Source of the DNA: an uncultured bacterium
GTDB lineage: Bacteria; Acidobacteriota; Thermoanaerobaculia; Multivoradales; JAHZIX01
DNA length: 64,000 nucleotides
Assembly: GCA_965368975.1 (NCBI GenBank)
Contig: CBDUPA010000012.1
Coordinates: forward strand, 83,540 to 147,539
Reading direction: 5' to 3'
The notes under the pieces were generated by a model. It worked only from the letters and a program-made list of their open reading frames with translations. It did not search any database and was not told where the DNA came from. Position numbers and translations under genes: made by a program. The stretch's first letter is position 1. Each line of letters begins with the position of its first letter. Shown here piece by piece: positions 12,474 to 53,801 of this stretch.

Positions 12474-12474
12474 C

Positions 12475-34695: not shown

Positions 34696-34698
34696 ACG

Positions 34699-37638: not shown

Positions 37639-40362
37639 GTGGTCGTATGTCTCTTGGAGACAGTCGTTCGAAGAGCAGTGACAGCTGCTGCGATTCTGAC
37701 GCTTGTCGTGGGACTGGGCTTACAGGCACAGTCAGGGTCTGCTAACGCCCCGAAAGGGGCCCAGTTTGTCTTCGTGATCGATGATTCTGGCAGCATGGGG
37801 CAGCCGGAACACGGGCTTACAGACCCCGATCGGCTGGCTGTGTTCGCGGTGCGTGCTCTACTGGGTGTGCTCGACGACCGGGACTGGGCGACAGTTGTTC
37901 GTCTCAATGGCCCTCGCGAGGGTGAAGATCCGCTATCGCTGGCGCCTTTGGGAGATGCGCACCGAACCCGGCTGATGGAGGTTCTGCAGCTGGACGCGGA
38001 ACTGGCGCGATATGAGGGGGAGTACACGCCTTGCCGAAGGGCTCTACAGGCCGTCAAGCGGATGCTCGAAGGGTCGGATAGGCAGAACATTTCCCAAGTC
38101 GTGATCTTCCTTTCGGATGGCAAGTGCACACCGGTAACGCAAGGGGAAGATCGTGTCCTTGACTTTGCTGAAGGTTTGCGCTCGGCTCAGGGAGAGAATC
38201 CGCGCCTTCAGTTCTACTTTCTGCGATTCGAAGGGCAAGAGTACACTCCGGGGCTGGAGCAGCTGGCCGAGAACACCGGAGGTTCGGCGATCGAGGTCCG
38301 ACAGGGGGATCCGACGCGGATCCTCTACACCTTTGCGCAAGCGCTGGCCCGCTCGCAGGGCTACGAACCTCTGATCCTCAGTCCGAGCGTGCGGCAGCTG
38401 CCGGCCTACCGGGGGGCCAACCGAGTCCGCTTGCTGGCAATTGCGCGCGGCGATCAGGGAGAGCCGTTGGCGGTGCGCGTCCGGCGTCGTCAAGGGGGCG
38501 GAGTCGATACGGTGCCGATCGAGCAGGGCACCCACAGATTCCCGGGGCAACAGGGGTATCGCTTCGCTTCGGTGCAGTATCGGCCGGTCGAGCAGCCGGT
38601 GGAGGTGGAGGTGGTCGGAGCCGGCGAGGATTGGGAGGTCGTTGCCTTGCCGGAATATCACCTGGCGGTCAACCTGGCCTTGCGTCGTGGTGGCTGTGAG
38701 GAGGAAGGCGAGACCCTGGGTGGCGTCACGCCAGCCGGAAGCGGATTGTGTGCGGTGATCGAGCTAGTCAATGAGGAAGGGCGCGTGGTGGGCAAGGAGG
38801 TGACCACCGGGCAGTTACAGGCTTCCTTGCGTCAGACAGTCCCGGGTGGTTCCGAGCCTCGGCTGATTTCGGCAACGGAAGCTTCCTCGGATCTCGCCAG
38901 CTTCCGCTTGGATATACAAGGGCTCGAGAGCGGTCACCACGAGTTTCAGGGGCAGGTCCAGTTGGGGACCCAGGTTGACGATCCCCGAGTTCTGACGGGC
39001 ACTGCGCGAACACTGCAAGCAGTAGATCTGGCGATCCGGCCGGTTCCGAGTGAGCTGCGACTCGATCCAATCCAGCCCGGTGAGGTCAGCCGTCAGAGCC
39101 TGGAGATCCATGGCAACTTCGCGCCGTCGGAAGCCGTGGTCTCCTTGGAAGAGGGAGAGAATCTGCCGAGCTGCGTGACCTTAAGCTTTGACGGCAAGGA
39201 GCTTGGAGAGACCATCTCGATTCGTCCAAAGCAGGGCTACTGGGTCGAATTTCGGGCGGCCAAAGCCTGCGGCGAGACGCAAGGTCGACAGGTCGATGCG
39301 CGCCTGCGCCTGGAGCTTGCGGGACTCGATTCGATTGCCATACCGGTAACCTTTCGCTTGGAGAACAACGCCCAACGCCGAGATCCGACAACAGTGGAAT
39401 TGCGGGCAGGTACGACGAGAGAGGTCGATGTAGCAATCCCCGCGGCCTGGAATTCTTTCGACGTACAAGCAACCGCCGCCGAGAATGCGCAGGGCGAAAC
39501 CTATGAGTTGCTGCGCGCTGAGATTCTGAGCGAGCCTCCGATTCCCTCTGAAGACGGTGAAGCCTCAGGTCGCCAGCGAGTCGAGGGATTGACCGCTGAA
39601 CAGGGACTGTCTCTGCAACTCGTAGCTTCGGGCTGTTGCAGGTCCGGGACCTACGCCCTCGATGTCTACCTGTGGCCCAAGGTCGGTGCCACGACCATCG
39701 TACCGCTGGTCGTCGAAGTCGAGGCCAGCTGGTGGACCTGCTACGGCTCTTGGGTGCTCGCGGGGACCATCGGTCTCTTGGCTGGCTTGCTGGTGTTCTA
39801 TGTCCTGAGCATGTTCAGTCATACCACCTTGCTCGACCGAGACCAGCTGAGCGCTCGTCTAGTGCCCTTACGCTGGCCTCGCCATCGCGGCGCACCGCAA
39901 CCCGCCAGCAATCGCAGTAGTGACCGAGAAGAGGTCGAAGACATTGTGCACAGTGAAGTCTCTAGCCTGCAGCGGGTGCGGAGCTGGCTACGAGCCAATC
40001 CCCTGGTCTTTGGCTCGCCTGGGCGAGAGTACAGAGAGACGGCCGAACTCTTTTTGACCACTGATCTCGGGCTAACCTCGATTTCCCTGGTATTGGAGCG
40101 GGATGTCGTCGACCGACTCCGGACGAGCGAGGAGATCGACACTTGGGAAGAGGGGAGGCTCTTCGCGCGCGCCGGCAATCCCGTCTCCTTCTTTGTCGTG
40201 CGCGGTCCGAGCAAGAAAGTTCAGCAGATGACTCCGGAAGGCTGGTTCGGCAAGGTCGATGACCTGACTGTCGAGCAGGTTTCCAAAGGACAAAGATTCA
40301 TTCGTCAGCTTTCCATCAAAGAGCGCAAAGAAGGCGCTGTGGCCGGGTGGGTTCTGGAATAG
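37639..40362 (+). CDS. Membrane-anchored von Willebrand factor A (vWA) domain protein.
   Basis: Signal peptide. vWA MIDAS FVFVIDDSGSMGQ (nt ~37781-37798). Large extracytoplasmic region. A single C-terminal TM helix (WWTCYGSWVLAGTIGLLAGLLVFYVLSMF) precedes a ~190-aa cytoplasmic tail. GTG start. Confidence 0.75.
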   Translation: MVVCLLETVVRRAVTAAAILTLVVGLGLQAQSGSANAPKGAQFVFVIDDSGSMGQPEHGLTDPDRLAVFAVRALLGVLDDRDWATVVRLNGPREGEDPLSLAPLGDAHRTRLMEVLQLDAELARYEGEYTPCRRALQAVKRMLEGSDRQNISQVVIFLSDGKCTPVTQGEDRVLDFAEGLRSAQGENPRLQFYFLRFEGQEYTPGLEQLAENTGGSAIEVRQGDPTRILYTFAQALARSQGYEPLILSPSVRQLPAYRGANRVRLLAIARGDQGEPLAVRVRRRQGGGVDTVPIEQGTHRFPGQQGYRFASVQYRPVEQPVEVEVVGAGEDWEVVALPEYHLAVNLALRRGGCEEEGETLGGVTPAGSGLCAVIELVNEEGRVVGKEVTTGQLQASLRQTVPGGSEPRLISATEASSDLASFRLDIQGLESGHHEFQGQVQLGTQVDDPRVLTGTARTLQAVDLAIRPVPSELRLDPIQPGEVSRQSLEIHGNFAPSEAVVSLEEGENLPSCVTLSFDGKELGETISIRPKQGYWVEFRAAKACGETQGRQVDARLRLELAGLDSIAIPVTFRLENNAQRRDPTTVELRAGTTREVDVAIPAAWNSFDVQATAAENAQGETYELLRAEILSEPPIPSEDGEASGRQRVEGLTAEQGLSLQLVASGCCRSGTYALDVYLWPKVGATTIVPLVVEVEASWWTCYGSWVLAGTIGLLAGLLVFYVLSMFSHTTLLDRDQLSARLVPLRWPRHRGAPQPASNRSSDREEVEDIVHSEVSSLQRVRSWLRANPLVFGSPGREYRETAELFLTTDLGLTSISLVLERDVVDRLRTSEEIDTWEEGRLFARAGNPVSFFVVRGPSKKVQQMTPEGWFGKVDDLTVEQVSKGQRFIRQLSIKERKEGAVAGWVLE

Positions 40363-40408
40363 AGCTCGAGGCCGGTCCGAAAACAAAAGCAAAATTGCGA
40401 GGTTGAAC

Positions 40409-43400
40409 ATGGCCAGAGATCGTAAGTTGATCGTCGAAGAACTCCTGACCAAGCCCAGCGGCGTGTGTCCGATGCTGTTCGTTGGTATGGGAGGAGCGGG
40501 TTGCAGGATGGTGGAGCGGATCGCCGGTCATCTCCGAGGTCGACCGGATTATAAAGAACGCTTCAAAGATCTGGTCAAGTTCGCCATGATCGACAGCAAT
40601 GTCAATGATCTGGAAGGGTATCGAGAAGTGGCCAATGCAACCTTCCTGATCAGTGACTTCGAGAAGGAGGAGTACGCCAATCTGGCCTCTGGCAAGAAGT
40701 TCCTGGAACCGCAGCAGTACTTTACACAGTGGGTGCCGTCGGACTATCGCTTCCGCTCCGGAGATACCTCGGGGGCTGGCCAGATTCGCATCGAATCTCG
40801 TCTGGGTGTTTACTACCAGATGAAGCACAAACAATTCGTGCCCAGATTCCGCAGTCTCTTGGAGAGTCTGAAGTCGCACGAGAACGGACATCGGAGGTTG
40901 GACTCCGACGAGATCCGGATCGTACTCTGCTATTCCGTCGCCGGCGGAACCGGCTCCGGTTGTCATCTGCCAGTGGCCTATATGTTGCGGGATCAGGCCG
41001 ACGACCTGGGCAAGCCGACTTTGATCGGTGTTGCGGTGTTGCCGGCGGTCTTCGAGGACAAGGTCGGCGTCAATAAGGATGGTGTTTTTGCCAACGGTTA
41101 TGCAGCTCTGAAGGAAACCGAGCATTTGATGAAGCTCGGTGCCCCGGATTCTCGGTTCTTTCCCGAGAAGGGGATCGAGTTTCACTACAACCCCGCCGAT
41201 GAATCGAAGCGAACGGTTCACGCGCGTCCCTTCGACTTCCTTTATCTGATCGACAAACCCGAGTCGTTCAGCGTTCCCGAGCCGGTGGATGCTGCGGCGG
41301 ACGGACTCTATCTGCAGTTCTTCTCGCCCCTCTACGGGGCCCAGCTCTCCGACTACGACAACTACACGCAGTACCAGAGGTTCTTGGTACCGGAAGACTT
41401 CGAAGAGGGAGGCATTCCGGGCTTCTCGACCTTCTATGGCTCCTACGGTTGCGCAGTGCTCCTGGTGCCGGTTCCCGGCCTGGTGGAGTATTGCAGCCAG
41501 GCTGCCGCCCTGGCGTTGATTCGGGCCAGCTTCATGGGGGATATCCCAGCGGATCCGATGTACGAGCCCTTGCGCATCGACAGCGACCGCTTCTATGAAG
41601 TCAAGGAGCGCGACGACGAGGATGCGCAGCTCTTCCAGGCTGCGGATATCCCCAGTCAGCCTCAGAAAGAGCGTCGCCGAAGGTTGTTCGATCGGCTTTT
41701 TGCCAAGCGGGTGCGCCTGCTGGCGGCGTGTGAGTACCGGGCTGACCGCGACGGCCGGTTCCGCGGCATCTTCCGGCACGGCCACTATCTCGGAACCATC
41801 CCGAAGCTCGACGGTAGCGCCGTCATGGACATGGAGCGGTTCGACGAAGAGGCCGAGCGCGAGCGCGAGCTGGTCGGTGGCAAGCTCAGCGTTTCGATCG
41901 GCGGCATCATCCTGCCCGCCTTGGTCGGACTGCCGGGGGACGACCCCGGACTCCTGCAACGGGCGCACCAAGCGATCAAGAACTTCAAGGTCGACAAGCC
42001 GCGTCGTGACATGCGGGTCAACGAACTACGAGCGCGCGGCGACGCGTGGCGGACGATGTTGAGGGATGAGGGGCGTCAACGCCTGCGCGATGGCTACAGC
42101 GATGGCACGGTGCAGGTGCCTGGCATGGAGAGCCTGGTGCAAATGGACTTCCTGCGCCGGGAGGCGGGAGAGGTCGAGCTGGCGGCCAAGCGCTACGCGG
42201 TGCTCTCTCTGCTCGACGCGGTGGATTGGGAACAAGCGCCGGAAGACGAGGCCGAGTCCAACTTCGATGTCCAGGAGAAGAAGCCCACGGCCAAGGCCGA
42301 CGATGCCTTGATCGAGCACGTAATCAACCAGGCTCGGGATCTGGCCTTCCGCGACATCCGCCGCGAGTTCCTGTCCCAATTGGGCGAGTTGCGCGAGGCG
42401 CTGGAGAGCATCGCCGACGAGATGCGGGAGCTGGAGCAGGGGTCGACCAACCTGGAGCGCGAGTACGGTCGTCGCCTGGAGCGCCTGCAGTTCCAGGGCG
42501 AGGAGTCGGCCAATCAGTACATCCTGGACGCCGAGGCGTTGCAAGGGGAAGACAATCGACGCTTCTGGGACTTCTACTTCGAGGACAAAATCGCAGCTCT
42601 GCCCGAGTTGTCGCTGAGCAATGCTCGCGTGCAACAAATCCTGAGTGACACCGTCATCGAGCTATCGCAGCGTACGGGCCGCAGCACGAGCACGTCACGC
42701 CTGGAGAAACTGTTCACCGCGTTGCGCAAGTATGCCCAGGACTTCCTCGACAAGCGGATCGGCGGTGATCGTCACTCACCGGACCTGGAACGTCGCGAAG
42801 GGTTGACGCTGTCGGATGCGCTGGAGCTGGAGATCACCTACCGAGCGCTCTATCGCAGCTACGCCGAAGCGATCCAGGGGCAGGGGGACAAGGTCATTCG
42901 TCGCATTCTCTCCGAATACCGCGCCCTGCCCGACGAGAAGCAGATCGATTTCGCGGAGCCCAAGCACCAGGACTATCTGCGCGACAAGATCAAGCGGGTA
43001 GTGCAGGAGAAGGCATCCCTGCTCTGTGTCTACAACCACTCACGCGATCAGCATGGTGGCGTGCGGCCAAACCATATCTTCCTGGCCGCGATTGATGAGA
43101 ACTTCAAGAACAGCAACATCGAACAGGCGCTGAAAGATGCCGACATCGATGATCTCAAGTGGGTGTCCGGCAGCTGGCACAACGCCAAAGAGATCGTCTT
43201 CTACCGCGCGGTGTTGAATGTTCCGCTTTACACCTTCGGTCGGCTCGACCAGATGAAGCACCACTATGAAAGCTTCCGCAGTCTGAGGCGGCGCTCGAAG
43301 GTGCTGCACATCGACAAGAACTGGGAGGGTGACCAGCTCTGTGACCTGGATCCGGGCACGCTCAAAGAAGTGCATCGTCAACTAACCGTGCGCGACCAGA

Positions 43401-44278: not shown

Positions 44279-47200
44279 CCAACCTGGTGTATCCGGCTCC
44301 GGGTATCGTTGTGGGCGTTGGCCGCTTTGGGCTGGCGGTCCTCGAAAAGCTCGGCGAGGATTGGCAACAGCTGAAGCTATCGGGGGCCGGGCCGTCGTGC
44401 GAGAACCTACGCCTGTTTTGGGTCCATCCAGAGCAGGACGACGAGGGCTGTTGGCGGGAAATCGAGCTGCCCGAGCTGAACACCGCCAATTACAGTGAAG
44501 ATGGCGACTGGCCGTCGATCGTGCTCGACTTCGTGCTCTTGCGCACCATGGGATTGATCCGCTATCGCCATGGCATCTACCAGGTGGCTTCGCCGCGCGA
44601 TTGCGGCCCGGTGCGAACGGCCGATCTCGAGTATCCGGAGACCAAAGACAAAGAAGATCCTGAAGCAGAAGAAGCCAAGAAGGATCGCGAAGAAGATAAG
44701 CGACTGGTGCGCCGCCGCTTCTTCGACTGGCTCGACCTGGCTCCCGACCCCGTCGAGGCCGCGGAGCGACTGAAGAAGAAGGCCGAGCGTGAGCCGGTAT
44801 TGCACCTCTTCATCTCTCCCTTGCTGCACCGGGTGCGGCAGGGCCACAGCCCGTGGATCTTGATGGCTGCGATCCTGCGCTGTAGTTGCTTGCGCGCCGG
44901 TCGAGACCCTTCGCCGTGGCGCTGGGTTCGCGAACAGGAGGCGCAAGGCAAGATCGACCAGGAGGCCATCCAGACGGTATGCGAGGACCGTGACAGGTTT
45001 CTCGACCGTTTCGCGCCAGCACCCCTGAAGCCCTCACCACAGCCCGAGGTCGATGAGGGGGAAGTCGAGGGGAGAAAGACGGACGTCTGGAAGTTCGAAG
45101 AGACGGAGATCGTCATTCCCAAGATCTTTCGGCCCCAGGAGGGAGATCCGGAGCCGCCGATCGATACCTTTCACCTGCTGCGTGAGAACTGGCAGGTATC
45201 CGGCTGGGCGACCGATCTCGAGACGCAGAAACAGCAGGGTTTCAAACCGCTGCAGGTGAGCCATTTCCGCCTGGGTCTTTTTGACCACTGTCAACACCGG
45301 GAGTCGAGAGAGCCCGAGTTGACAAAGGCCTTCGAGAAGCGACTCAAGTGCACGTCCAGGCTCTTGCATCGGGGGCTGGTTCGGTTGTGGGTCGATCTCA
45401 AGCGCGAGCAGGTAGAAGAGCAGGCTCTCGCCACCGGTGAGCGCCGCCATCGCCTGCTCGATGAAGCACTACAGCAAAGCTTGAAGATCCTGGAGAAGTT
45501 GGTCGTGGATCCGCTGAAGGACGCTCCCGGCAAGGAGAAAGAGGGCGAGTGCTTGAGCGATCTCTTGCGCTGTCCGGTCGACTTGCCGGACCAGCCGACC
45601 CAGTTTCTGCGCAACCAGTGCTTCGATCCTGACTCGCGGTGGTTGCGGGACAGCGCCTTGGAACGACGCCTGGTAGCTCTCGGGCTGGGAGACCCGTGGC
45701 GCGCCGCGCCGCGACGGCGGGGATTGTTCCAGGAGGTGATCCTCGAGAAGCAAGCCGAGGGCGGCTGCGCTCCAGGCGAGAGCGATGATCGCCCCCGATG
45801 CACGGAGATCGCCAAAGAGCCCAAGTCCGCTGGCGAAGGCCGGGGTCGATTCCGCAAGCAGCTGAACCAGACGGTCCGAGAGTTGTTGGACTTTTCCTAC
45901 CTGGGAAGGTACCGCGAGCGCTTGACTCGCACACCGCCACGTCTGACGGTCTTTGTCGTCGGTGACATGAGCGAGCCCTTTACGCGCATCAAGATGCAGC
46001 AAGTCCTCAAGGACGTTCACTCGGAACTGCTGCGGGCCTTCAGCTCCGTGTTCGAACTGAACCGGGATGGCTTCGATCGTGCCTTGTCCGTCATGCCGAT
46101 TCTCTGGATGCCGCATCCGGCGGATCCGTTCGGTGGTGAGGAGCCACTGAAGACACGCCTGGAGGAGGCGGTGATCATCGATGCGGTGCACGGTATTCGA
46201 CGCTGGGTCGAGGCGGTGTTACCCGGTGCGCGGCGCCGGATCTCGCAGATTTTCATCAACAGCAGGGTCACGGACAACGCGGTCTTGAGCATGGACGACA
46301 GCGTCAACCAGACGCGCGACTTCCTATCCTTCCAACTGCGCAATGACCTATCGCGCGATGACTGGCTGCGTCGGACCGCGGTGGGTCCGGGGGGCGACGA
46401 CTACTTCGCCTCGTTCGCCTGCTGCGAGATCGAGTTCCCGGCGGAGAGGGCGCGCGAATACCTGGCCAATCGCATCGCTCGCGACTGCTTGCGTCAGCTG
46501 CAGGTGGAAGCTGAATGGCGGGGGCGCGAGGCGGTCAAGGTACCCGATCCCTCATCCATGGAAGAGCTGGTCGGAGAGGCGAGTTCGCGTCTGCAGCAGG
46601 AGACGGAAAGGGAGGCGAAGGGTCTGACGGACGCCATCTGGAATGCCCTGCCGCAGGGCGAGAGCTCCCGGCGCTGCATGCCGCGCAAGGAGATCCTGAG
46701 CCACTTCTCGGAGCGTTTCGAAAGCCGACTGTGGGCGGACATCACGCGACTGTGGCGACAGCTGACCCAGCGTCGAGGTCACATGGATGACTTTGTCGAT
46801 TCCTTGCGACACCAGATCTCCCGGCAGCTGCATGGTGCGCTGCCCGACATCCGGCGTCAGAGTGACGACGAGGTGTACCAGGCCAGTGGGCAAGGTATCC
46901 AGGCGGCACTCTCGCGCCTGCAGGAACGCCGCTGGCAAGCCTTCAAGCAGCTGCAGGAGGCGGAGGAAGAACGTCTCCAGGCCGAGGAGGCCTGCCAGCA
47001 GAATCAGCGGCCGAACCGTGGCAGGCTGTCGCGGGCCCGTCTGGCAGTCACGGAGGCAGCGAAAGCCAAGCCGGATTGTGGTCCGCAGCGCTTCGGTCTT
47101 CTCGCCTGGGGCCTGTTGGCTCCGATCACCGCGGTGTTGCCCGCTCGTTTGTTGGAGTCCGAACTGGGCTGGTGGGCGTTGCCTTTGGTGATTGTTTTGC

Positions 47201-48330
47201 TGATCGTATTGGCGGGTGTCTCGCTCTGGGCCTTGACGCGCCATCGGTATCGTCAGCTGCAGGCCGCGATCGAGACGATGGCATCGGCCGTTCATCGCAT
47301 GGTGTCCGGCGGCAGTGACTCTAGCCTGGTGGCGGCCGGGGCGTCCTTGCGTTCCTTCCTGGAGACCCGCCTGCGCCTGACCGCGGCGCTGGCCCGGCGC
47401 GGCTTTTCGCTCCACGTATTCGAGCAAGCGGCGGTGGATGAAGCTCTGGGTCTGCGCTTGCGCGAGAGCGTCGACATCCAGCTGCACAAGATGATGCGCC
47501 GAGCCGAGAGCCTCAAGGTACGTCCCGGCGGAGCCAGTGGCAACGAGCGCGATGATCTGCGAGATCTCTTTGTGCGGCGCGCCGGAGAACGCGTCGAGAA
47601 GCTGATCGATCCCGACCACCTGCTCGAGTACTACCACACCCGCGTGCGTCCGGACGACGTACCGGTGCAGGAGTTCATCGAGCAGGTCGGTGGTCTCCAA
47701 GATTGGCGCCGAACCGCGTGCCTGTCCGATTCCACGGCGGTCATGGCATGGGGACAGGAACTCTTCACTACCCTGGTCGACAAACCGATCACGGAACTCG
47801 ACTACTTCACCGAGGCGGTGGGGGAGCAGTTGCGGCGATTCGTCCTGCGCAATTACTCGAATATCGGTTTCGGGGCCAAGTTCCTGGGCTACGAAGGGCT
47901 GGATCCGGATGGCATCCGCCTGGTCGCCGATGCTTCCCTGGTGGCCGACCAGGCCTTGCTGCATGCCTATGCCTGGGCCGTGGAGCAGCAGGAAGACCAT
48001 GCCCGTCGCAACCGTGAGGTGAGTCGCGCGGCGCGCACGCTGGAGACGATCGCGGCCAAGGTCCGACCCAATGCCGCCTACATGCTCTCCTTGGTCCAGG
48101 GCGTGCGAGCCCACAGCGTACACAACCTGAAGCGCTTCGAGTCGTTCCATGATCGACCCGAGGGTCCGGACTCGGACGCGATCCACTACCTGACGGGCTA
48201 TGAAGAGAAAGCCAAAGAGTTTTACCAGTGGATCAGCGCCGAGGATGCCGCGCCGCGCGCACGGCAGGACGAAAATACTACGACTGCCAGCTCTGGGGAG
48301 ATAGAAGATCATGGACCCGACGTGGATTGA
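44275..48330 (+). CDS. Giant hypothetical protein (1351 aa) with a glycine-rich N-terminus and a central pair of TM helices.
   Basis: ATGA overlap with the tubulin-like gene. The N-terminus IVVGVGRFGLAVLEKL is weakly reminiscent of a degenerate FtsZ/tubulin T1 loop. TM region near ...FGLLAWGLLAPITAVLP...WWALPLVIVLLIVLAGVSLWAL. Confidence 0.55.
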   Translation: MTNLVYPAPGIVVGVGRFGLAVLEKLGEDWQQLKLSGAGPSCENLRLFWVHPEQDDEGCWREIELPELNTANYSEDGDWPSIVLDFVLLRTMGLIRYRHGIYQVASPRDCGPVRTADLEYPETKDKEDPEAEEAKKDREEDKRLVRRRFFDWLDLAPDPVEAAERLKKKAEREPVLHLFISPLLHRVRQGHSPWILMAAILRCSCLRAGRDPSPWRWVREQEAQGKIDQEAIQTVCEDRDRFLDRFAPAPLKPSPQPEVDEGEVEGRKTDVWKFEETEIVIPKIFRPQEGDPEPPIDTFHLLRENWQVSGWATDLETQKQQGFKPLQVSHFRLGLFDHCQHRESREPELTKAFEKRLKCTSRLLHRGLVRLWVDLKREQVEEQALATGERRHRLLDEALQQSLKILEKLVVDPLKDAPGKEKEGECLSDLLRCPVDLPDQPTQFLRNQCFDPDSRWLRDSALERRLVALGLGDPWRAAPRRRGLFQEVILEKQAEGGCAPGESDDRPRCTEIAKEPKSAGEGRGRFRKQLNQTVRELLDFSYLGRYRERLTRTPPRLTVFVVGDMSEPFTRIKMQQVLKDVHSELLRAFSSVFELNRDGFDRALSVMPILWMPHPADPFGGEEPLKTRLEEAVIIDAVHGIRRWVEAVLPGARRRISQIFINSRVTDNAVLSMDDSVNQTRDFLSFQLRNDLSRDDWLRRTAVGPGGDDYFASFACCEIEFPAERAREYLANRIARDCLRQLQVEAEWRGREAVKVPDPSSMEELVGEASSRLQQETEREAKGLTDAIWNALPQGESSRRCMPRKEILSHFSERFESRLWADITRLWRQLTQRRGHMDDFVDSLRHQISRQLHGALPDIRRQSDDEVYQASGQGIQAALSRLQERRWQAFKQLQEAEEERLQAEEACQQNQRPNRGRLSRARLAVTEAAKAKPDCGPQRFGLLAWGLLAPITAVLPARLLESELGWWALPLVIVLLIVLAGVSLWALTRHRYRQLQAAIETMASAVHRMVSGGSDSSLVAAGASLRSFLETRLRLTAALARRGFSLHVFEQAAVDEALGLRLRESVDIQLHKMMRRAESLKVRPGGASGNERDDLRDLFVRRAGERVEKLIDPDHLLEYYHTRVRPDDVPVQEFIEQVGGLQDWRRTACLSDSTAVMAWGQELFTTLVDKPITELDYFTEAVGEQLRRFVLRNYSNIGFGAKFLGYEGLDPDGIRLVADASLVADQALLHAYAWAVEQQEDHARRNREVSRAARTLETIAAKVRPNAAYMLSLVQGVRAHSVHNLKRFESFHDRPEGPDSDAIHYLTGYEEKAKEFYQWISAEDAAPRARQDENTTTASSGEIEDHGPDVD

Positions 48331-51300
48331 TGTTGCCTGGCAGGTGATCTGGCAGGCCATTGCCGGCGTCTTGGTCTGGCTCGATAGCCAGTCGCTCTAT
48401 GTGATCCTCGGCTGTGTGGGCGGCCTGCTGAGCTTTGTCTATGGTTTGGCATATGGCCTGCAATGGCGGCTCGTCAAGTTTCTCGAGCCGCGACCGGAAC
48501 AGACAGCGCCGCTGGGACGTTGGGAGGCCATGTCTTCCCTCTTGGCACCGGTGACGGTCGTATTCTTCGTGCTGGAGGGCATCACCCGCTCGCTGCATCG
48601 CCGGGTGCGAGGTTCGAAGGAACCAGACTGGAAGGTCAAGCACTCGAGTTCCGCCAAGAACCATGGCAAGCCGATCTTGATCGCGACCTTGGGGCCGACC
48701 TTTCTGCTCGCCGGTGTCTTCACTGCTGTGGTCTACTGGTTGGCCCGTCTCGGCGAGCCTCTGTTCGCCGAAGCGTTCTCTCATGCGGGTCCATATCCTT
48801 TCTGGGAGTCCAAGCTGCTCAGTGCCTTGTTGGTCCTCGAAGCTCCGCCAGACATCTTCCCGTTGGCGAGCCATCCCAAGGTATCGCTGGTCCTGAGCTT
48901 GCTCTTCTGGACAGCTCTCTGGTGGACGTGCGGCAATCTGCTGCGAGGCTTCGTCTATCGAACCGACTTGCAGCGCAACCTGGCGGGCCGCCGCGATACA
49001 GCCTTGCCGCTGTGGACCTCCTGGTTCGGGGTCAAGAAGCTGACCGAGGCCGGTGAGGCCTACCGGGGTTGGGCCGCCTGGCTGGTGACGGCGGTCATCC
49101 TGCTGACCGTCGGTGCTGGCATGACGCTGAACCCGGCTCCCGGCTCTACCACTGCCGGTGTTGTTGATGGCCTGGAGCCAGCAGTCCAGGTTTCGCCGTC
49201 CGCGCTCGCCGTCGCCTTGATCCTCGCCTTGTCTTGGGTGCTGCACCTGCACCTCAAAGGCAAGCATTTTGAGCCGGAGCCCAAGTCCCGAAGGGAAGCG
49301 ATCGTGCCGTCGGAAGGCCTGCCGGGATGGCAGCGTGTCGTGGCCAAGTTGGAGGAACGGTATCGCCTGACGCCGCCGGAGTTTCGCGGCGAGCGACCGT
49401 TGCTGGCCCCCGCGTTCACCGTACCTACAACGGCTCTCCAGGTGCTCTCGCCCCTGGTTCCTGAACTCCTGCAGGAGCCGGAGCAGAGTCCGGAAATCCG
49501 GCAGACACCGCCGCTGAACGTGATGCAGGCGAAGGTGCTCGAAAGTCTTTCGCTGTTTGGCTATGTCCACCTGCAGCCCCCCACCACCGGCGATGTCCTG
49601 GAACTTTCGAGTAGTGGTCCAGGAGCGGTCGAGGACCGTAGTGGGTTATCTGAGCGCCACCAGATCGTGCTGGCCCCCGAGGGCAGTGGCAAGACGACTC
49701 TGGCCATACTCGCCGCCGCCAACAATACCCTCGTGCATGCCCGAGCGACGCTGCTGATCACGCGGTCGGGGGAACAAGCGGACGAACTCCAGCTCAAGTT
49801 CCAGGAGGTCGTCGAGCCCTCCACGGTGCGCTGGAACCTGCGGTTTCGCCGCATGGGCCAAGACTTCGCGTCAGACCTCAGTCGCGACATCGTGCCCGAC
49901 ATCGTGATCTCGAGCCTGCACGAACTCACCACCGGCATGCTCGACAACGCGGAGGTCTATGCCGACTTCCTGCGCAACGTCGGGCTCGTGGTAGTGGACG
50001 ATGTAGAGTCCTTCGCCGGAGCCGTCGAGATTCACGCCCAGCTGGCCTTCCGCCGTCTCCGCCTGCTCTTCCGGCAAGTTTCCGAGGTCGAACAGCTCGG
50101 TGAGGCCAACGCACCGTTGATGCTGATCCTGGGCGTCGATTCGATGAAAGAAATGGCTGCCTGGGCCAAGAGTCTGTGCGGTGTCCAGGCCGTGGTGCGG
50201 AACTTTCCCGCCGCCATGGCGGAGACCGACCAGTCGAAAGACAGCGCATCAGAGGGCAGTCCATCAGGGGACAGGTCATCAGGGGACAGTACATCAGGGG
50301 ATAGAGCCTCCGAGGAGGGCGCGCGACAGCAGAAATGGCTTCCGTTCAGCGCCCTGCAAAGCCACCAGGGGCGGCAACTGACCGTGCCGGAGGTCGTCGC
50401 CGCCTGTGAAGCCGCTGGCGTGCCCTGGTGCTATCGACCCTGCGGTGACGGTCGTCGGCATCGAGGCCGTGGTCCGCTACTCCTGGAGCAGGAGCCCGAG
50501 CACGCCACGGCATCGCCACGGGATGCCTGTGTGATCTTCTTGGATGGTCGATGGAGCGAGGTACGCAGAGAGCTGCAGCGGAGTCCGTGGGCCGGGTACC
50601 AATCGAGACGGCAAGAGGTCATCTTCCTCGTCCTGGTCGATCCCGAGGAGGCGCTGGCCTGCGGCGAACTCGACCCGGACCTGGGTTTCGAGGCCTCGCA
50701 CGATCACGTGCGTCCAGACTTGGCGGAGGAACTCGTGACCTTGCCGCTGCCGGTCGTGCGCCCGCCATCGAGCCACGTCTTGCAGTCTCACCTGCTCTCC
50801 GATCTCGTGCAGAGTTGGTTCGAAGTCAAGGACCTGGTGGATACCTTCGAAGTCCCCGTGGCGCATCGTCTACGCTATTTGCAGTCGCAGGGCATGTTGC
50901 TGATGGAGGAGCGAAGCGACGTCCAGGCCGCACTGAAGGAGTACGAAGCCAAAGTTTACGTACGTGCCCTTGCAGCCTCCCTGGCCATCGACGAGGCCGG
51001 AGGCAGCGCCAACGACGGCATCATCGAGTATCCGCCCCTGGACAAGGTGCGACAAGTCGAGCTGGTGGCCAGGTCGGCGGTGACGATCCGCAATCGAGCC
51101 GATCACACGCTGCTGCGCACGGTCGAGGCCGATAGCGCGGCCTGGATCTACTACCCGGGGCGCATCTTCGAGGACTCTCGCGGCCGCTTCGTCGTGGTCG
51201 GCCGAGTCCGTCGAGGAGATCGACTGGGTGCCATCGAGGTCGAGCCCGTATTGCACGACAACTTTTCCAGTCCACGGCGTTGGTTCGAGCGCATCGAGCC

Positions 51301-52258
51301 GGAGACCTCGAGCCGAGAGAAACTCTCCGTCGCCGCCGACTCCGACTCGTCGGCGCACTGCGAGGCGCACGGCTATGCTCTGTATGAAAAGGAACCGGTT
51401 CTGCTGGGGCGGCACAGCATCGAACTCGGCCTGGTCGCGATCGAACTGAAGCTACATTCGTTGGCGGTCTTCCGACTCGACAGGTCGACCTTCGAGGTGC
51501 GCGCGCGGGAGATTCACGCGCAGCGAGCGCAGAGCGAGTTTCCGCCGGCAGAACTGCAGACAATCGCGGTCTCGTTGCACCCCAATCCCCAGGAATCGAG
51601 CCCATCTGCTCCGAAGCTGCACCTGGCGGCAGCGCGCTTGCTCACCGCGCTGTTGCGCTTTGTGCTGCCGCTGATCTATCGCAACGTCCAGGATCGCTTG
51701 GAGGTCGCGTTGATCTTCCCGGGGGAGGACGGCGACAAGAGGTTCACAGCACCGTGGGATTCGGAGCTGGAGTCCGAGGCGGCCCTCTACCTCTTCGACC
51801 TGCACCAGGGGGGAGATGGCACTGCGCGGGCTCTGTACCGGGATGGCGTCGAGCTACCGCTGCGCTTCTGCCGACACTTCCTGGCCACGGACGTGGACGT
51901 GGAGCGGATCTTCCGGCTCCATGGGCACGAGAGTAGCTTGCAGGAGGTCAAGGTAACCCATGGAGGTCCCGAGGCGGTTGGGAACGATGCTGAGCCAGAG
52001 GACGAGATACTGGAAGCGTGGCCTTGGCAAGAGATCCGTGCTGGGTTGCTGGCCTGGTTGGATAGTCGTCTTCATCCGGAGTCCGTCTCCTGGGCCGAGG
52101 CCGAAGCGTCGGCTGCTGAGGAGGTTACGGAGGATACTGAACTAGAGGCAGAAGACCTGGAGGCAAGTGCCCCGGGCGATCACGCACAGACCGCTGAAAG
52201 TTCCACCGTCGAAGAAGCCACCGCCGAAGAGTCCACTGCTGAGACGGAAGAGGCTTGA
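48311..52258 (+). CDS. Polytopic-membrane-anchored P-loop ATPase / SF2-helicase-like protein (1315 aa).
   Basis: The N-terminal ~300 aa hold multiple TM helices. Walker A APEGSGKTT (nt ~49676-49700). DExx-like VVVDDVESF. Acidic C-terminal tail. 20-bp overlap with the upstream gene. Confidence 0.6.
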   Translation: MDPTWIDVAWQVIWQAIAGVLVWLDSQSLYVILGCVGGLLSFVYGLAYGLQWRLVKFLEPRPEQTAPLGRWEAMSSLLAPVTVVFFVLEGITRSLHRRVRGSKEPDWKVKHSSSAKNHGKPILIATLGPTFLLAGVFTAVVYWLARLGEPLFAEAFSHAGPYPFWESKLLSALLVLEAPPDIFPLASHPKVSLVLSLLFWTALWWTCGNLLRGFVYRTDLQRNLAGRRDTALPLWTSWFGVKKLTEAGEAYRGWAAWLVTAVILLTVGAGMTLNPAPGSTTAGVVDGLEPAVQVSPSALAVALILALSWVLHLHLKGKHFEPEPKSRREAIVPSEGLPGWQRVVAKLEERYRLTPPEFRGERPLLAPAFTVPTTALQVLSPLVPELLQEPEQSPEIRQTPPLNVMQAKVLESLSLFGYVHLQPPTTGDVLELSSSGPGAVEDRSGLSERHQIVLAPEGSGKTTLAILAAANNTLVHARATLLITRSGEQADELQLKFQEVVEPSTVRWNLRFRRMGQDFASDLSRDIVPDIVISSLHELTTGMLDNAEVYADFLRNVGLVVVDDVESFAGAVEIHAQLAFRRLRLLFRQVSEVEQLGEANAPLMLILGVDSMKEMAAWAKSLCGVQAVVRNFPAAMAETDQSKDSASEGSPSGDRSSGDSTSGDRASEEGARQQKWLPFSALQSHQGRQLTVPEVVAACEAAGVPWCYRPCGDGRRHRGRGPLLLEQEPEHATASPRDACVIFLDGRWSEVRRELQRSPWAGYQSRRQEVIFLVLVDPEEALACGELDPDLGFEASHDHVRPDLAEELVTLPLPVVRPPSSHVLQSHLLSDLVQSWFEVKDLVDTFEVPVAHRLRYLQSQGMLLMEERSDVQAALKEYEAKVYVRALAASLAIDEAGGSANDGIIEYPPLDKVRQVELVARSAVTIRNRADHTLLRTVEADSAAWIYYPGRIFEDSRGRFVVVGRVRRGDRLGAIEVEPVLHDNFSSPRRWFERIEPETSSREKLSVAADSDSSAHCEAHGYALYEKEPVLLGRHSIELGLVAIELKLHSLAVFRLDRSTFEVRAREIHAQRAQSEFPPAELQTIAVSLHPNPQESSPSAPKLHLAAARLLTALLRFVLPLIYRNVQDRLEVALIFPGEDGDKRFTAPWDSELESEAALYLFDLHQGGDGTARALYRDGVELPLRFCRHFLATDVDVERIFRLHGHESSLQEVKVTHGGPEAVGNDAEPEDEILEAWPWQEIRAGLLAWLDSRLHPESVSWAEAEASAAEEVTEDTELEAEDLEASAPGDHAQTAESSTVEEATAEESTAETEEA

Positions 52259-52262
52259 AGAG

Positions 52263-53084: not shown

Positions 53085-53094
53085 TATCTGATTC

Positions 53095-53649
53095 CTATGA
53101 AATGACGGTGATAAGTCCAACCAGTAGGCCACCAACACCGACGAACAAGCTGGCAGAGGAAATCCATTTTTCACGCTTGCGCTGTGCAGATTGCTCTTGC
53201 ATCTGTTGTTTTAGATGCTGTGTTAGGGGCTGCAAGAGATGGTTATTGCTCGGCAGATTCTCGTCCAGACGTTTGAGGTGTAATTGAATGTCTTTGGGCA
53301 ATCCTTGAAACGGCTCTTCTGACTCCAGCTGTTTTAGGAAATCTTCGATTCTGTCTAGGAAGGTCGAAGGAGTCTCATCCATCTCACCTGTGATCACTCT
53401 GCTGAGAAGACTCTCGAGGGAGTGCTTGAGGCCGACGGTATTAACGTCATGTGTCCGGGCAAGGCTTCGAACTCGAGACCAGGTCACATCTTCGTGACTC
53501 AATGCTTTGGTGAGATCTTCTCTGAAGTTTGCCAACTCTTTGGGGCGTTCGTTGCGTTCCTTCACTTCTGAGAGAAAAGCGACCATACCAACAGAACTGC
53601 CGATAGCAGTCCCGAGCAAGACGAGAATTAGGATATAGGTAATTTCCAT
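53095..53649 (-). CDS. Hypothetical membrane protein (N- and C-terminal TM helices) in the low-GC island.
   Basis: 184 aa: MEITYILILVLLGTAIGSSVGMVAFL... and ...LFVGVGGLLVGLITVIS. Low GC. Confidence 0.45.
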   Translation of the reverse strand: MEITYILILVLLGTAIGSSVGMVAFLSEVKERNERPKELANFREDLTKALSHEDVTWSRVRSLARTHDVNTVGLKHSLESLLSRVITGEMDETPSTFLDRIEDFLKQLESEEPFQGLPKDIQLHLKRLDENLPSNNHLLQPLTQHLKQQMQEQSAQRKREKWISSASLFVGVGGLLVGLITVIS

Positions 53650-53801
53650 AGATCTGTAGATTTCTGTGCTGGATTTCCGGGAATGGCTCCACTAAGAAGA
53701 AACGCGAGAACACGTCGATTCCCGGACCAACGGCTGTACTCAATCTCGGCGGAAAAATTCAGCTTGGCTTTCTGAGTGGCTTAGATCATGAAGACGGGCC
53801 C

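What the first reader, a model, noticed from the sequence alone, without database searches (positions are those of the whole stretch)
37639..52258. Four-gene operon: membrane vWA protein, 1.3-kaa tubulin/FtsZ-like GTPase, giant protein and polytopic membrane ATPase. It is a candidate novel membrane-associated cytomotive system.
Seen directly: four very large genes (907, 1289, 1351 and 1315 aa) on one strand with start/stop overlaps of 4 and 20 bp. Gene 1 has a signal peptide, a vWA MIDAS motif DDSGSM, one TM helix and a cytoplasmic tail. Gene 2 carries the exact tubulin signature AGGTGSG and a T1-like GMGGAG loop, but it is about three times the size of FtsZ and ends in an acidic PAEPDK-repeat tail. 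Gene 4 has an N-terminal polytopic membrane domain fused to a Walker A / DExx helicase-like ATPase.

Established knowledge: divergent FtsZ/tubulin families (FtsZl-1 / Pfam Tubulin_2) have been noted bioinformatically, and I recall them being linked to vWA proteins. They remain functionally uncharacterised.

Inference: a transmembrane vWA 'receptor' whose cytoplasmic tail engages a GTP-driven tubulin-like filament together with a membrane helicase-like motor. This could be a membrane-remodelling, secretion or conflict system that has not been described experimentally.
Basis: partly seen in the sequence, partly recalled or inferred. Interest (0 to 1): 0.88.

Follow-up and report, generated by a model that had tools for sequence, protein, structure and literature searches.

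The report
Membrane machine with two tubulin-like proteins
This is a real, conserved operon that combines an outward-facing vWA receptor, a tubulin-like GTPase, a second hidden tubulin-fold protein anchored in the membrane, and a membrane-embedded DNA-repair-type helicase; it is an untested new subtype of a system class so far predicted only by computer.

Summary

- **Gene 2** is a full-length Pfam Tubulin_2 protein (the FtsZl1 family; E = 9e-41).
- **Conservation:** the four genes occur in the same order in 31 of 50 related loci from Acidobacteriota (Thermoanaerobaculia) and Myxococcota (Bradymonadales). The flanking genes are not conserved.
- **Gene 5:** the usual system has a fifth gene, a lipoprotein. 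This window and its closest relative have lost it.
- **Accessory genes:** two small genes on the minus strand belong to the locus.

vWA–FtsZl1 operons were predicted in 2010 as membrane-remodelling systems. Related tubulin and vWA operons were reinterpreted in 2020 as conflict systems. Neither paper describes this pseudo-tubulin plus membrane-helicase subtype, and I found no experimental work.

My preferred model is inferred, not shown. A periplasmic MIDAS receptor gates GTP-dependent assembly of a gene 2/gene 3 tubulin pair at the inner membrane, and that assembly controls the helicase. I rate it a new variant of a known kind, interest about 0.7.

The parts
37639..40362 (+). g1: bitopic membrane protein of 907 aa. 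It has a signal peptide, a periplasmic vWA domain, a Cys-rich beta-rich ectodomain, one TM helix and a ~180-aa cytoplasmic tail.
   Evidence: ORF and translation. Pfam VWA_2 E=1.4e-5 and VWA E=1.1e-3. Hydropathy. The 17-orthologue alignment A5 has invariant MIDAS residues and conserved Cys pairs. Orthologues lie upstream of g2 in 41 of 50 loci.
37780..37797 (+). MIDAS motif DDSGSM (DxSxS) of the vWA domain.
   Evidence: Coordinates. D48, S50 and S52, plus T130 and D160, are invariant in 17 orthologues.
39748..39816 (+). g1 transmembrane helix (aa 704-726). The tail at aa 730-907 (39826-40359) is predicted to be cytoplasmic.
   Evidence: Hydropathy peak of 2.23. Basic residues follow the helix. 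Tail residues W746, R779, W783, P788 and L789 are conserved.
40409..44278 (+). g2: FtsZl1/Tubulin_2 family protein of 1289 aa. It is soluble, with an N-terminal tubulin-like GTPase domain, a long helical middle and C-terminal region, and an acidic repeat tail.
   Evidence: Pfam PF13809 E=8.8e-41. There are 493 homologues, and the best 120 listed share 51% or more identity over 94% or more of the length; sources name some of them 'tubulin-like domain-containing protein'. No TM segment. Mean column identity is 63% across 15 orthologues.
40475..41521 (+). Tubulin_2 domain of g2. It includes the T1-like loop GMGGAG (40484-40501), the T4 signature AGGTGSG (40940-40960), a T5-like PAVFEDK (41042-41062) and a possible T7-like EDFEEGG (41393-41413).
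   Evidence: The Pfam match covers profile positions 1-355 of 356. G26, G28, G29, G31, A178-G184, D330, F331 and E332 are invariant. The T5 and T7 assignments were made by eye only.
44129..44218 (+). 21-nt tandem repeat that encodes the acidic PAEPDK(P/S) tail of g2.
   Evidence: Tandem Repeats Finder gave period 21, 4.3 copies and score 110.
44275..48330 (+). g3: 1351-aa membrane-anchored cryptic tubulin-fold protein ('pseudo-tubulin'). It has no Pfam domain.
   Evidence: ORF. 126 homologues were found, and none of the 120 listed has a Pfam domain. It lies directly after g2 in 43 of 50 loci, and in one more (L023) after an insertion. Only 115 cluster representatives match among 1.84 billion.
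44296..46509 (+). Tubulin/FtsZ-like fold of g3 (aa ~8-745). It is split by a ~440-aa insertion (aa ~115-555). The T1-like GVGRFG is at 44314-44331. A degenerate T4 position reads VVGDMSEPF at 45955-45981. The S7-like block GGDDYFASFACC is at 46390-46425.
47098..47238 (+). g3 hydrophobic hairpin (aa 942-988), probably two helices. Both flanks are basic, so both the N- and C-terminal domains are predicted to be cytoplasmic.
   Evidence: Hydropathy. Flanking K/R residues are visible. The hairpin topology is inferred.
48311..52258 (+). g4: 1315 aa. It has an N-terminal polytopic membrane domain (aa 28-317, 48392-49261) fused to an MrfA/DUF1998-like SF2 helicase/ATPase (aa ~446-1260, 49646-52090) and an acidic tail.
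49673..49699 (+). g4 helicase motif I (APEGSGKTT). Motif II, VVVDDVESF, is at 49988-50014.
   Evidence: Coordinates. E124, G125, G127, D230 and V232 are invariant, and K128, T130, D231 and E233 are at least 90% conserved in the 24-sequence alignment A4.
52263..53084 (-). Accessory gene of 273 aa, starting at M31 of the 303-aa ORF. It has an N-terminal TM helix, a Pro-rich linker and a conserved domain with the motifs G(T/M)(A/S)SCE, RA..RA, W, C and T..QR.
   Evidence: Homologues occur in 12 loci. They are convergent downstream in L002-L004 and L060, and co-directional immediately upstream of g1 in 8 Thermoanaerobaculia loci. No Pfam match.
53095..53649 (-). Accessory gene of 184 aa with terminal TM helices. 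It is co-transcribed with the 273-aa gene and convergent on g4.
   Evidence: Identity is 74% to the L060 homologue, 41% to L051/L003 and 34% to L004, always beside the cassette.

Best explanation
**What it is.** The locus is a self-contained envelope-spanning system. It is a previously undescribed subtype of the vWA–FtsZl1 (Tubulin_2) operons.

**Shown here.**
- g1 places a MIDAS-competent vWA domain and a disulfide-rich ectodomain outside the cytoplasmic membrane, with a conserved tail inside.
- g2 is a soluble tubulin-like protein that keeps all of its GTP-binding signatures.
- g3 is a second tubulin-fold protein with a degenerate nucleotide signature. It is tethered to the membrane by a hydrophobic hairpin.
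- g4 is a polytopic membrane protein fused to an MrfA-like SF2 ATPase.
- The genes are translationally coupled and are inherited together as a block.

**Inferred mechanism.**
1. g2 and g3 form a tubulin-type heteropair or co-polymer on the inner face of the membrane, comparable to alpha/beta-tubulin or BtubA/B. g3 acts as the membrane anchor and as a nucleator or cap.
2. Ligand binding at the periplasmic MIDAS site of g1 is passed through its tail. This switches GTP-dependent assembly of g2 on g3.
3. The assembled polymer recruits or activates the g4 ATPase. g4 then acts on a nucleic acid, or another polymer, at the membrane.
4. The lipoprotein g5 (lost in this copy) and the 273-aa and 184-aa proteins are envelope-side accessories.

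**Most likely biological role.** I favour a triggered conflict or surveillance response at the cell envelope, for example against phage entry or attack by other cells, at about 40%. Constitutive membrane remodelling is about 30%.
For: - **Domain identities:**
- **Topology:**
- **Operon coupling:** overlaps of 4 and 20 bp here, and the same pattern in L051 and L052.
- **Block conservation:** g1-g2-g3-g4 occur in the same order in 31 of 50 loci. These come from Thermoanaerobaculia, Bradymonadales/Myxococcota and a few MAGs (metagenome-assembled genomes) labelled Pseudomonadota. The flanks are not conserved.
- **Deeper g2-g3(-g4) association:** compact g3 relatives without the insertion again sit next to Tubulin_2 genes. 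In L058 one is followed by a g4-like gene.
- **Conflict flavour:**
  - The cassette's G+C is 0.59-0.64, against 0.65-0.70 in most of the surrounding sequence.
  - It has a patchy distribution across phyla.
  - g1 is much more divergent (33-38% identity) than g2 (50-57%).
  - A toxin-antitoxin pair is inserted inside the operon in L054.
  - A distantly related vWA–tubulin cassette is bracketed by IS701 copies between WYL/RecQ-family and BrxL/helicase-related genes. Another lies next to CHAT and caspase genes.
  - The window has a helicase-nuclease pair immediately downstream.
  - Kaur et al. 2020 classify related tubulin and vWA operons as NTP-thresholded conflict systems.
Against: - No interaction, GTPase activity, polymerisation or ATPase activity was tested.
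- No recognisable toxic effector is present, and no PADLOC system matched.
- Flanking genes in most other genomes are not defence genes.
- The cassette is present in every cultured Bradymonadales genus sampled here (Bradymonas, Lujinxingia, Persicimonas). g2 is also very strongly conserved. Both points fit a housekeeping cell-biological role better.
- g1 was not detected upstream in 9 of 50 loci. L024 and L039 have a full 10-kb flank, with SelO upstream in L039 and nothing recognisable in L024. The receptor is therefore not obligatory.
- g4 has a DDVE Walker B and no clear motif VI or Zn-binding cysteines. Helicase activity is uncertain.
- This copy lacks g5 and may be impaired.
Confidence: 0.4

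Rival explanations
1. The system is a constitutive membrane-remodelling or cytomotive machine, which is the original Makarova & Koonin prediction. The g2/g3 polymer would shape, constrict or move the inner membrane, for example in vesicle formation, envelope repair or a process specific to predators. g1 and g5 would tie it to the cell wall or outer membrane. g4 would serve as an ATP-driven remodelling or disassembly factor.
For: - Every component except g2 is membrane-tethered.
- A lipoprotein (g5) and a periplasmic vWA domain are present.
- g3 has a helical stalk followed by a hydrophobic hairpin. This recalls dynamin-like paddles. There is also a weak LeoBC hit (E=3.8e-5).
- The cassette is present across Bradymonadales genera and in many Thermoanaerobaculia.
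- g2 is 50-57% identical between phyla over ~1250 aa, as expected for a cytoskeletal protein.
- Most flanks are non-defence genes.
- The prediction is published in PMC2875224.
Against: - An MrfA-type SF2 helicase has no known role in membrane remodelling.
- The LeoBC similarity appears in only 2 of 25 family members.
- The rare, patchy distribution, the G+C deviation and the links to mobile elements fit accessory genes better.
- The window lineage has lost g5 and L024/L039 show no g1. That is unexpected for an essential machine.
Confidence: 0.3
2. The system is a DNA or RNA transport or positioning device at the membrane. The polytopic domain of g4 would be a conduit and its SF2 module the translocase, functionally like ComEC plus ComFA. 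The tubulin pair would position or pull the nucleic acid, as TubZ and PhuZ do. g1 would be the external docking element.
For: - g4 fuses a 5-6 TM domain to a helicase whose closest structural match is MrfA bound to DNA.
- The g2-g3-g4 order is kept in the distant locus L058.
Against: - No DNA-binding adaptor, competence, conjugation or pilus genes lie in or near the cassettes.
- The cassette is absent from plasmids and viral contigs.
- The g4 helicase motifs are atypical.
- The membrane domain matches no known channel family.
Confidence: 0.12
3. The locus is a decaying or non-functional remnant. The window's copy lacks the otherwise universal fifth gene, so the operon here may be an inactive relic, and any mechanism would apply only to relatives.
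For: - g5 is present in all 27 loci that have sequence downstream of g4. It is absent here, with no remnant.
- The minus-strand gene abuts the g4 stop codon.
Against: - All four ORFs are intact and full-length. Every family-invariant motif is kept.
- The same g5-less layout occurs in an independent relative, L060. There g4 is 83% identical and the accessory genes are 64-74% identical. The arrangement has therefore persisted while the proteins diverged, which indicates purifying selection.
Confidence: 0.08

Closest known systems
vWA–FtsZl1 'membrane remodelling' operons (Makarova & Koonin 2010, Biol Direct 5:33; Pfam Tubulin_2 PF13809)
   Same: - g2 is a bona fide Tubulin_2/FtsZl1 protein, with an N-terminal tubulin-like domain and a long helical C-terminal part.
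- It is preceded by a vWA protein with an intact MIDAS motif, a signal peptide and a TM helix.
- Most partner proteins are membrane-associated.
- Function is known only from prediction.
   Different: - The paper and its supplements list no helicase and no second tubulin-fold protein.
- Its operons feature OmpA-like proteins, Ser/Thr kinases and a diverged P-loop GTPase. All three are absent here.
- Its search found no FtsZl1 member in Acidobacteria. Bradymonadales do not appear in the parts of the paper and supplements I read or searched.
- Plasmid-borne FtsZl1 proteins match g2 only at ~25% identity, over the GTPase domain alone.
DO-GTPase / GAP1-N2 tubulin-containing conflict systems (Kaur, Burroughs, Iyer & Aravind 2020, eLife 9:e52696)
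   Same: - They contain a tubulin-domain protein fused to coiled-coil or helical C-terminal regions.
- They contain a TM-anchored protein with an extracellular vWA domain.
- They are predicted to act next to the membrane.
- The Firmicute versions carry two tubulin genes.
- They are interpreted as switches in which NTP-dependent assembly sets a threshold.
   Different: - The defining DO-GTPase, GAP1, FNIII-repeat and HSP70 components were not found in the cassette.
- The second tubulin here is a cryptic pseudo-tubulin with a membrane hairpin.
- An MrfA-like membrane helicase and a lipoprotein are present instead.
- The host phyla differ.
MrfA/YprA, the DUF1998 (MZB) SF2 helicase of Bacillus subtilis (PDB 6znp)
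   Same: - g4 has the DEAD-type RecA1 domain with GSGKT.
- 7 of 24 g4 relatives give weak MZB Pfam hits.
   Different: - g4 is fused to a 5-6 TM membrane domain.
- Its Walker B is DDVE rather than DExH.
- No four-Cys zinc site is conserved.
- Sequence identity is 13%, and no profile hit to any PDB sequence was found.
- No MrfB-like exonuclease partner is present.
Heterodimeric tubulins: eukaryotic alpha/beta-tubulin, Prosthecobacter BtubA/B and Asgard AtubA/B
   Same: - Two adjacent, co-expressed tubulin-superfamily genes are present.
- One partner may have an altered nucleotide site. This is an analogy only.
   Different: - g2 and g3 share almost no sequence similarity (hhalign E ~0.01-0.05).
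- Each is more than 1250 aa long, with large extra domains.
- g3 lacks the GGGTGSG signature, has a ~440-aa insertion and is membrane-anchored.
- Heterodimer formation was not tested.
Bacterial dynamin-like proteins / Eleos (LeoA-LeoBC) defence system
   Same: - They are large NTPases with a helical stalk and a membrane-inserting hydrophobic hairpin.
- g3 aa 813-1042 gives a weak PADLOC LeoBC hit (E=3.8e-5).
   Different: - The NTPase fold is tubulin-like, not dynamin-like.
- The LeoBC similarity is seen in only 2 of 25 family members, so it is probably compositional. This is a functional analogy at most.

Membership tests
FtsZl1 / Pfam Tubulin_2 (g2) | Match to PF13809 above the gathering score, over the whole domain | tested here: met
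   140.8 bits against a cut-off of 27, E=8.8e-41, covering profile positions 1-355 of 356. Every one of the best 120 homologues listed carries PF13809.
FtsZl1 / Pfam Tubulin_2 (g2) | Glycine-rich T1 loop and T4 signature GGGTG(S/T)G | tested here: met
   GMGGAG at aa 26-31 and AGGTGSG at aa 178-184. Both are invariant in 15 orthologues.
FtsZl1 / Pfam Tubulin_2 (g2) | Architecture of N-terminal FtsZ-like domain, extended coiled coil and alpha-helical C-terminal domain | tested here: inconclusive
   Length (1289 aa), lack of TM segments and a charged heptad-like middle region fit by eye. No coiled-coil predictor or structure model was run for g2.
FtsZl1 / Pfam Tubulin_2 (g2) | Operon partner with a vWA domain and an intact MIDAS motif | tested here: met
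   g1 lies directly upstream. The MIDAS residues are invariant, and g1 is present in 41 of 50 loci.
FtsZl1 / Pfam Tubulin_2 (g2) | GTP binding, GTP hydrolysis and polymerisation | not testable with these tools
   This needs biochemistry and electron microscopy.
Tubulin/FtsZ superfamily (g3) | Tubulin/FtsZ fold: a Rossmann-like GTPase domain, helix H7 and the start of the C-terminal domain | tested here: met
   [not shown]
Tubulin/FtsZ superfamily (g3) | Signature GGGTG(S/T)G (T4) nucleotide-binding motif | tested here: not met
   The structurally equivalent strand-loop reads VVGDMSEPF (aa 561-569), and no Gly-rich T4 exists anywhere in the family. Only a T1-like GxGRFG is kept.
Tubulin/FtsZ superfamily (g3) | Significant sequence-profile match to Tubulin or Tubulin_2 | tested here: not met
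   Pfam Tubulin_2 scores only 14.5 bits (E=0.022) at aa 664-739. hhalign against the g2 family gave E 0.054, 0.009 and 0.0018 with probability of 15% or less. There were no PDB sequence hits.
MrfA / DUF1998 SF2 helicases (g4) | SF2 RecA1 domain with motifs I and II | tested here: met
   Pfam DEAD scores 30.9 bits against a cut-off of 26, and all 24 relatives hit it. GSGKT is conserved. Motif II is the atypical DDVE.
MrfA / DUF1998 SF2 helicases (g4) | Overall multi-domain architecture of MrfA | tested here: met
   [not shown]
MrfA / DUF1998 SF2 helicases (g4) | MZB/DUF1998 domain with a four-cysteine zinc site | tested here: not met
   The window protein has no PF09369 hit. 7 of 24 relatives hit it weakly, with a best E of 1.4e-3. 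No invariant Cys occurs in the C-terminal region of alignment A4.
DO-GTPase / GAP1-N2 tubulin conflict systems (Kaur et al. 2020) | One or two TRAFAC-clade DO-GTPase genes plus GAP1 | tested here: not met
   Pfam detected no P-loop GTPase in g1-g4, the accessory genes or the immediate neighbours. No GAP1 model was available, so GAP1 itself could not be searched for.
DO-GTPase / GAP1-N2 tubulin conflict systems (Kaur et al. 2020) | Tubulin-domain protein plus a TM protein with an extracellular vWA domain | tested here: met
   g2 and g1 fit this description. It follows the text found.
Catalogued anti-phage defence systems (PADLOC-DB v2) | Significant match of the component proteins to a system's models | tested here: not met
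   Only weak single-protein hits appeared: LeoBC E=3.8e-5, RTasNERD-Hel E=5.6e-4 and GajB E~0.02. LeoBC recurs in only 2 of 25 g3 relatives.
vWA domain (g1) | MIDAS residues DxSxS...T...D on a vWA fold | tested here: met
   D48, S50, S52, T130 and D160 are invariant. Pfam VWA_2 scores 26.1 bits, just under the 27-bit cut-off, and VWA scores 19.6 bits. No structure model was made.

The most novel reading that the evidence does not exclude
The cassette encodes a bacterial 'integrin-to-microtubule' style device. An extracytoplasmic MIDAS receptor would be mechanically or allosterically coupled, through the membrane, to an obligate heteropair of tubulin-superfamily proteins. One partner is GTP-competent. 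The other is a membrane-anchored pseudo-GTPase that has escaped every sequence model. Assembly of this pair would license a membrane-embedded SF2 translocase. This would be a new class of prokaryotic tubulin (the membrane-anchored pseudo-tubulins, including the compact ~800-aa relatives) and a new logic for outside-in signalling or for intercepting DNA at its point of entry.
Probability: 0.3. Interest if true: 0.9.

Novelty: new variant of a known kind. Interest (0 to 1): 0.7.

Why it matters
FtsZl1/Tubulin_2 proteins are the most divergent branch of the tubulin superfamily. Fifteen years after they were first predicted, their function is still unknown. Two incompatible readings exist: membrane remodelling and immune-like conflict.

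**What this subtype adds.**
- It offers an unusually clean, strongly conserved test case: four to seven genes with no kinase or GTPase clutter.
- It occurs in cultured organisms (Persicimonas caeni, Lujinxingia spp., Bradymonas sediminis).

**What the g3 result suggests.**
- The partner 'hypothetical giant' being a cryptic tubulin-fold protein suggests these systems may work as heteropairs.
- It reveals a dark family of membrane-anchored pseudo-tubulins that no Pfam model sees.

**The g4 fusion.** A membrane domain fused to an MrfA-type helicase is a rare architecture. It hints at nucleic-acid handling directly at the membrane.

Each of these points can be tested directly by biochemistry and cryo-ET (cryo-electron tomography).

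Tried and rejected
- **PADLOC scan of all four proteins and of 25 g3 relatives.** No system matched. The LeoBC (dynamin-like) lead for g3 does not hold across the family.
- **Profile searches of the g2, g3, g4 and compact-g3 families against PDB sequences.** Nothing was found.
- **hhalign of g3 against g2.** I tried full-length, spliced and compact relatives. Only marginal hits appeared, though they were in register. The paralogy claim therefore rests on structure.
- **Foldseek of the g3 model against PDB.** It was not significant, presumably because the insertion splits the domain.
- **Search for the fifth gene (g5) in the window.** tblastn found no remnant.
- **Plasmid and viral collections.** The cassette is not there. 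Only distant FtsZl1 proteins occur on megaplasmids.
- **Naming the source organism by exact-sequence look-up of the cassette proteins and four neighbouring proteins.** No names came back. The closest cassettes are from Thermoanaerobaculia.
- **Promoter and terminator scan.** Counts were at or below shuffled expectation, so it was uninformative.
- **tRNA scan for integration sites.** None found.
- **Test of whether the 686-aa gene after the Allomeiothermus tubulin-like gene is a compact g3.** Not supported (E=0.036).
- **First attempt at the representative-library search.** It failed because the profile exceeded 1200 positions. It was repeated with N-terminal fragments.

Full report
**1. Observation check**

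The region 37639-52258 carries four long ORFs on the + strand: 907 aa, 1289 aa (1291 from the first TTG), 1351 aa and 1315 aa. g2/g3 overlap by 4 bp (ATGA) and g3/g4 by 20 bp. The g1-g2 gap is 46 bp.

- g1: DDSGSM at aa 48-53, a hydrophobic N-terminus, and one TM helix at aa 704-726 followed by a ~180-aa tail.
- g2: GMGGAG and AGGTGSG, no TM segment, and an acidic tail encoded by a 21-nt tandem repeat.
- g4: five to six hydrophobic helices in aa 28-317, then GSGKT and VVVDDVESF.

The cassette has lower G+C (0.59-0.64) than most of its surroundings (0.65-0.70).

**2. Identity of the four proteins**

*g2.* It matches Pfam Tubulin_2 (PF13809) end to end, at 140.8 bits and E=8.8e-41. Tubulin_2 is the FtsZl1 family of Makarova & Koonin 2010 (PMC2875224).
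- Full-length orthologues at 51-80% identity are abundant in metagenomes. Where a source names them, the name is 'tubulin-like domain-containing protein'.
- In 15 orthologues the T1 and T4 glycines are invariant, as are many other positions along all 1289 residues. Mean column identity is 63%.

*g1.* It scores just below the Pfam vWA cut-offs.
- Alignment of 17 orthologues shows invariant MIDAS residues (D48, S50, S52, T130, D160).
- It also shows conserved cysteine pairs in the ~650-aa ectodomain, which fits an extracytoplasmic location, and a conserved tail.
- NCBI/ENA gene calls shorten g1 to 795 aa. The orthologue alignment supports the 907-aa form.

*g3.* It has no Pfam, PADLOC or PDB sequence match of note, and the 120 homologues listed have no Pfam domain.
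- An AlphaFold2 model of aa 1-940, built on a 47-sequence alignment, is confident (pLDDT 79, pTM 0.67).
- Weak sequence signals agree in register with this result. The N-terminal strand and Gly loop (GVGRFG) align to the T1 loop of g2. The block FASFACCEIEFP..REYLANR aligns to the end of the Tubulin_2 domain (Pfam E=0.022; hhalign).
- The T4 signature is absent, with VVGDMSEPF in its place. A ~440-aa insertion splits the domain.
- After the domain come long helices, a hydrophobic hairpin (aa 942-988) with basic residues on both sides, and a ~360-aa C-terminal domain.

*g4.* It carries Pfam DEAD.
- 7 of 24 relatives give weak MZB (PF09369) hits.
- Motif I is conserved. Motif II is DDVE. No four-Cys zinc site is conserved.

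**3. Conservation and true extent of the system**

A scan of one genome per species found 49 loci with a g2 orthologue. Together with L001 (Persicimonas caeni) that makes 50 loci.
- g3 follows g2 directly in 43 of the 50 loci, and in one more (L023) after an insertion. The remaining six loci end before g3 could appear.
- All of g1-g2-g3-g4 occur in the same order and strand in 31 loci.
- Hosts are Acidobacteriota of the class Thermoanaerobaculia, which includes 'Ca. Multivoradales', and Myxococcota/Bradymonadales (Persicimonas, Lujinxingia; Bradymonas). A few metagenome-assembled genomes (MAGs) are labelled Pseudomonadota.
- Flanking genes are not conserved.

*A fifth gene.* It encodes a ~380-aa protein with a lipoprotein-type signal. 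It follows g4 in all 27 loci that have sequence there. It is missing from the window with no remnant. It is also missing from the closest relative, L060, whose g4 is 83% identical.

*Two minus-strand accessory genes.* They converge on g4 at 53095-53649 (184 aa) and 52263-53084 (273 aa).
- Both are conserved beside the cassette in the window's clade.
- The 273-aa family is also encoded immediately upstream of g1, on the same strand, in eight other loci. Two different arrangements with the same partner indicate a functional link.

*g1 is not universal.* It was not detected upstream of g2 in 9 of the 50 loci. L024 and L039 have a full 10-kb upstream flank and still show none.

*The g2-g3 pairing is deeper than this cassette.*
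- A profile of the g3 tubulin-like region found only 115 cluster representatives among 1.84 billion.
- The weaker hits are compact ~800-870-aa proteins with the same layout but no insertion. They also have no Pfam match.
- One lies near a Tubulin_2 gene (L056).
- Another lies between the C-terminus of a g2-like gene and a g4-like gene with 28% identity and E=7e-26 (L058).

**4. What is known**

- Makarova & Koonin (2010) defined FtsZl1 and noted vWA, OmpA-like, kinase and GTPase partners. They predicted a membrane-remodelling machine. Neither the text nor the supplements mention a helicase or a second tubulin-fold partner.
- Kaur et al. (2020, PMC7159879) placed tubulin and vWA operons of Firmicutes and Actinobacteria among 'DO-GTPase/GAP1-N2' conflict systems. 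Some of those operons have two tubulin genes and a TM protein with an extracellular vWA domain. The defining DO-GTPase and HSP70 were not detected here, and GAP1 could not be searched for.
- Santana-Molina et al. (2023) used Tubulin_2 proteins only as an outgroup.
- None of the six full-text searches found an experimental study.

**5. Mechanism**

*Shown.*
- The domain identities and predicted topology.
- The translational coupling of the genes.
- Inheritance as a block.
- The deep g2-g3 association.

*Inferred.*
1. g2 and g3 form a tubulin-type heteropair or co-polymer on the inner membrane, with g3 as anchor, nucleator or cap.
2. The periplasmic MIDAS domain of g1 senses a ligand and signals through its tail.
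3. Assembly controls the g4 ATPase, which acts on nucleic acid or another polymer at the membrane.

*Evidence that leans towards a conflict or surveillance role.*
- The distribution is rare and patchy across phyla.
- The cassette's G+C deviates from its surroundings.
- The ectodomain evolves faster (g1 33-38% identity against g2 50-57%).
- A toxin-antitoxin pair is inserted inside the operon in L054.
- A distant vWA–tubulin cassette is bracketed by IS701 copies among WYL/RecQ-family and BrxL/helicase-related genes. Another sits beside CHAT and caspase genes.
- A helicase-nuclease pair lies immediately downstream in the window.

*Evidence against that role.*
- No catalogued defence model or toxic effector is present.
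- Most flanks are ordinary genes.
- The cassette is found in all three cultured Bradymonadales genera sampled here.
- g2 is very strongly conserved.

I therefore give about 0.4 to a triggered envelope-conflict role, 0.3 to constitutive membrane remodelling, 0.12 to nucleic-acid transport or positioning, and under 0.1 to a decaying remnant.

**6. Verdict**

- The 'giant' gene 3 is a cryptic tubulin-fold protein.
- The gene 4 ATPase is MrfA-like.
- The system extends beyond the stated coordinates, and this copy lacks its usual lipoprotein gene.

It is a new variant of a bioinformatically known but uncharacterised kind. I rate interest at 0.7.

Noticed in passing
window 53802-55967 (-) and 55964-62461 (-): A UvrD-like helicase (721 aa) overlaps by 4 bp a 2165-aa protein with DEAD, Helicase_C, MZB/DUF1998 and REase_MTES_1575 domains. 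This is a helicase-nuclease pair that looks like a defence module, directly downstream of the cassette.
   Followed up: no
window 6301-9306 (+): A 1001-aa protein has an N-terminal TIR_2 domain and TPR repeats, which is an architecture seen in conflict-system sensors. It is followed by an FHA-GGDEF protein.
   Followed up: no
window 33592-37464 (+): A split LanB-type lantibiotic dehydratase lies immediately upstream of g1. The C-terminal-domain gene (367 aa) precedes the N-terminal-domain gene (921 aa). I did not look for a precursor peptide.
   Followed up: no
window 52259-52262 and loci L002-L050: The lipoprotein gene g5 follows g4 in all 27 related loci that have downstream sequence. It is absent here and in the closest relative L060, where the minus-strand 273-aa gene abuts the g4 stop.
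   Followed up: yes
window 52000-54000: G+C drops sharply to 0.53 over the two accessory minus-strand genes. The cassette is at ~0.62 and the flanks at ~0.68.
   Followed up: partly
window 37639-37975: NCBI/ENA gene calls give g1 as 795 aa (P0266), which would cut off the signal peptide and the MIDAS motif. The Logan call and the orthologue alignment support 907 aa.
   Followed up: yes
L054 14084-20600: In a deltaproteobacterial MAG the operon is split between g2 and g3 by a ~6.8-kb insertion. The insertion carries an Unstab_antitox/ParE toxin-antitoxin pair and a TEN/YD-shell-like gene.
   Followed up: no
L061 (Allomeiothermus silvanus pMESIL01) 6233-14916: A distant vWA (521 aa), tubulin-like (909 aa) and hypothetical (686 aa) cassette is bracketed by two identical IS701-family transposase genes. 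It sits between WYL/RecQ-family genes and BrxL/helicase-related genes. The 686-aa protein is not detectably g3-like.
   Followed up: partly
L001 21600-22930 (g4 C-terminus of Persicimonas caeni): Long g4 variants (about 1570-1620 aa) carry an extra ~300-aa C-terminal region. It contains 'GNQESQTLLLALLLKHAGV', which looks like a transglutaminase-core motif without the catalytic Cys. This was read by eye, and Pfam finds nothing.
   Followed up: partly
window 50240-50316 and 52190-52236: In-frame 15- and 30-nt tandem repeats encode Ser/Gly/Asp-rich and acidic low-complexity linkers in g4.
   Followed up: no
L005/L052 5114-7149 and seven similar loci: In one Thermoanaerobaculia clade the operon has two extra upstream genes. 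The first (~340-420 aa) has similarity to part of g1. The second is the homologue of the 273-aa accessory gene, and its stop abuts the g1 start.
   Followed up: partly
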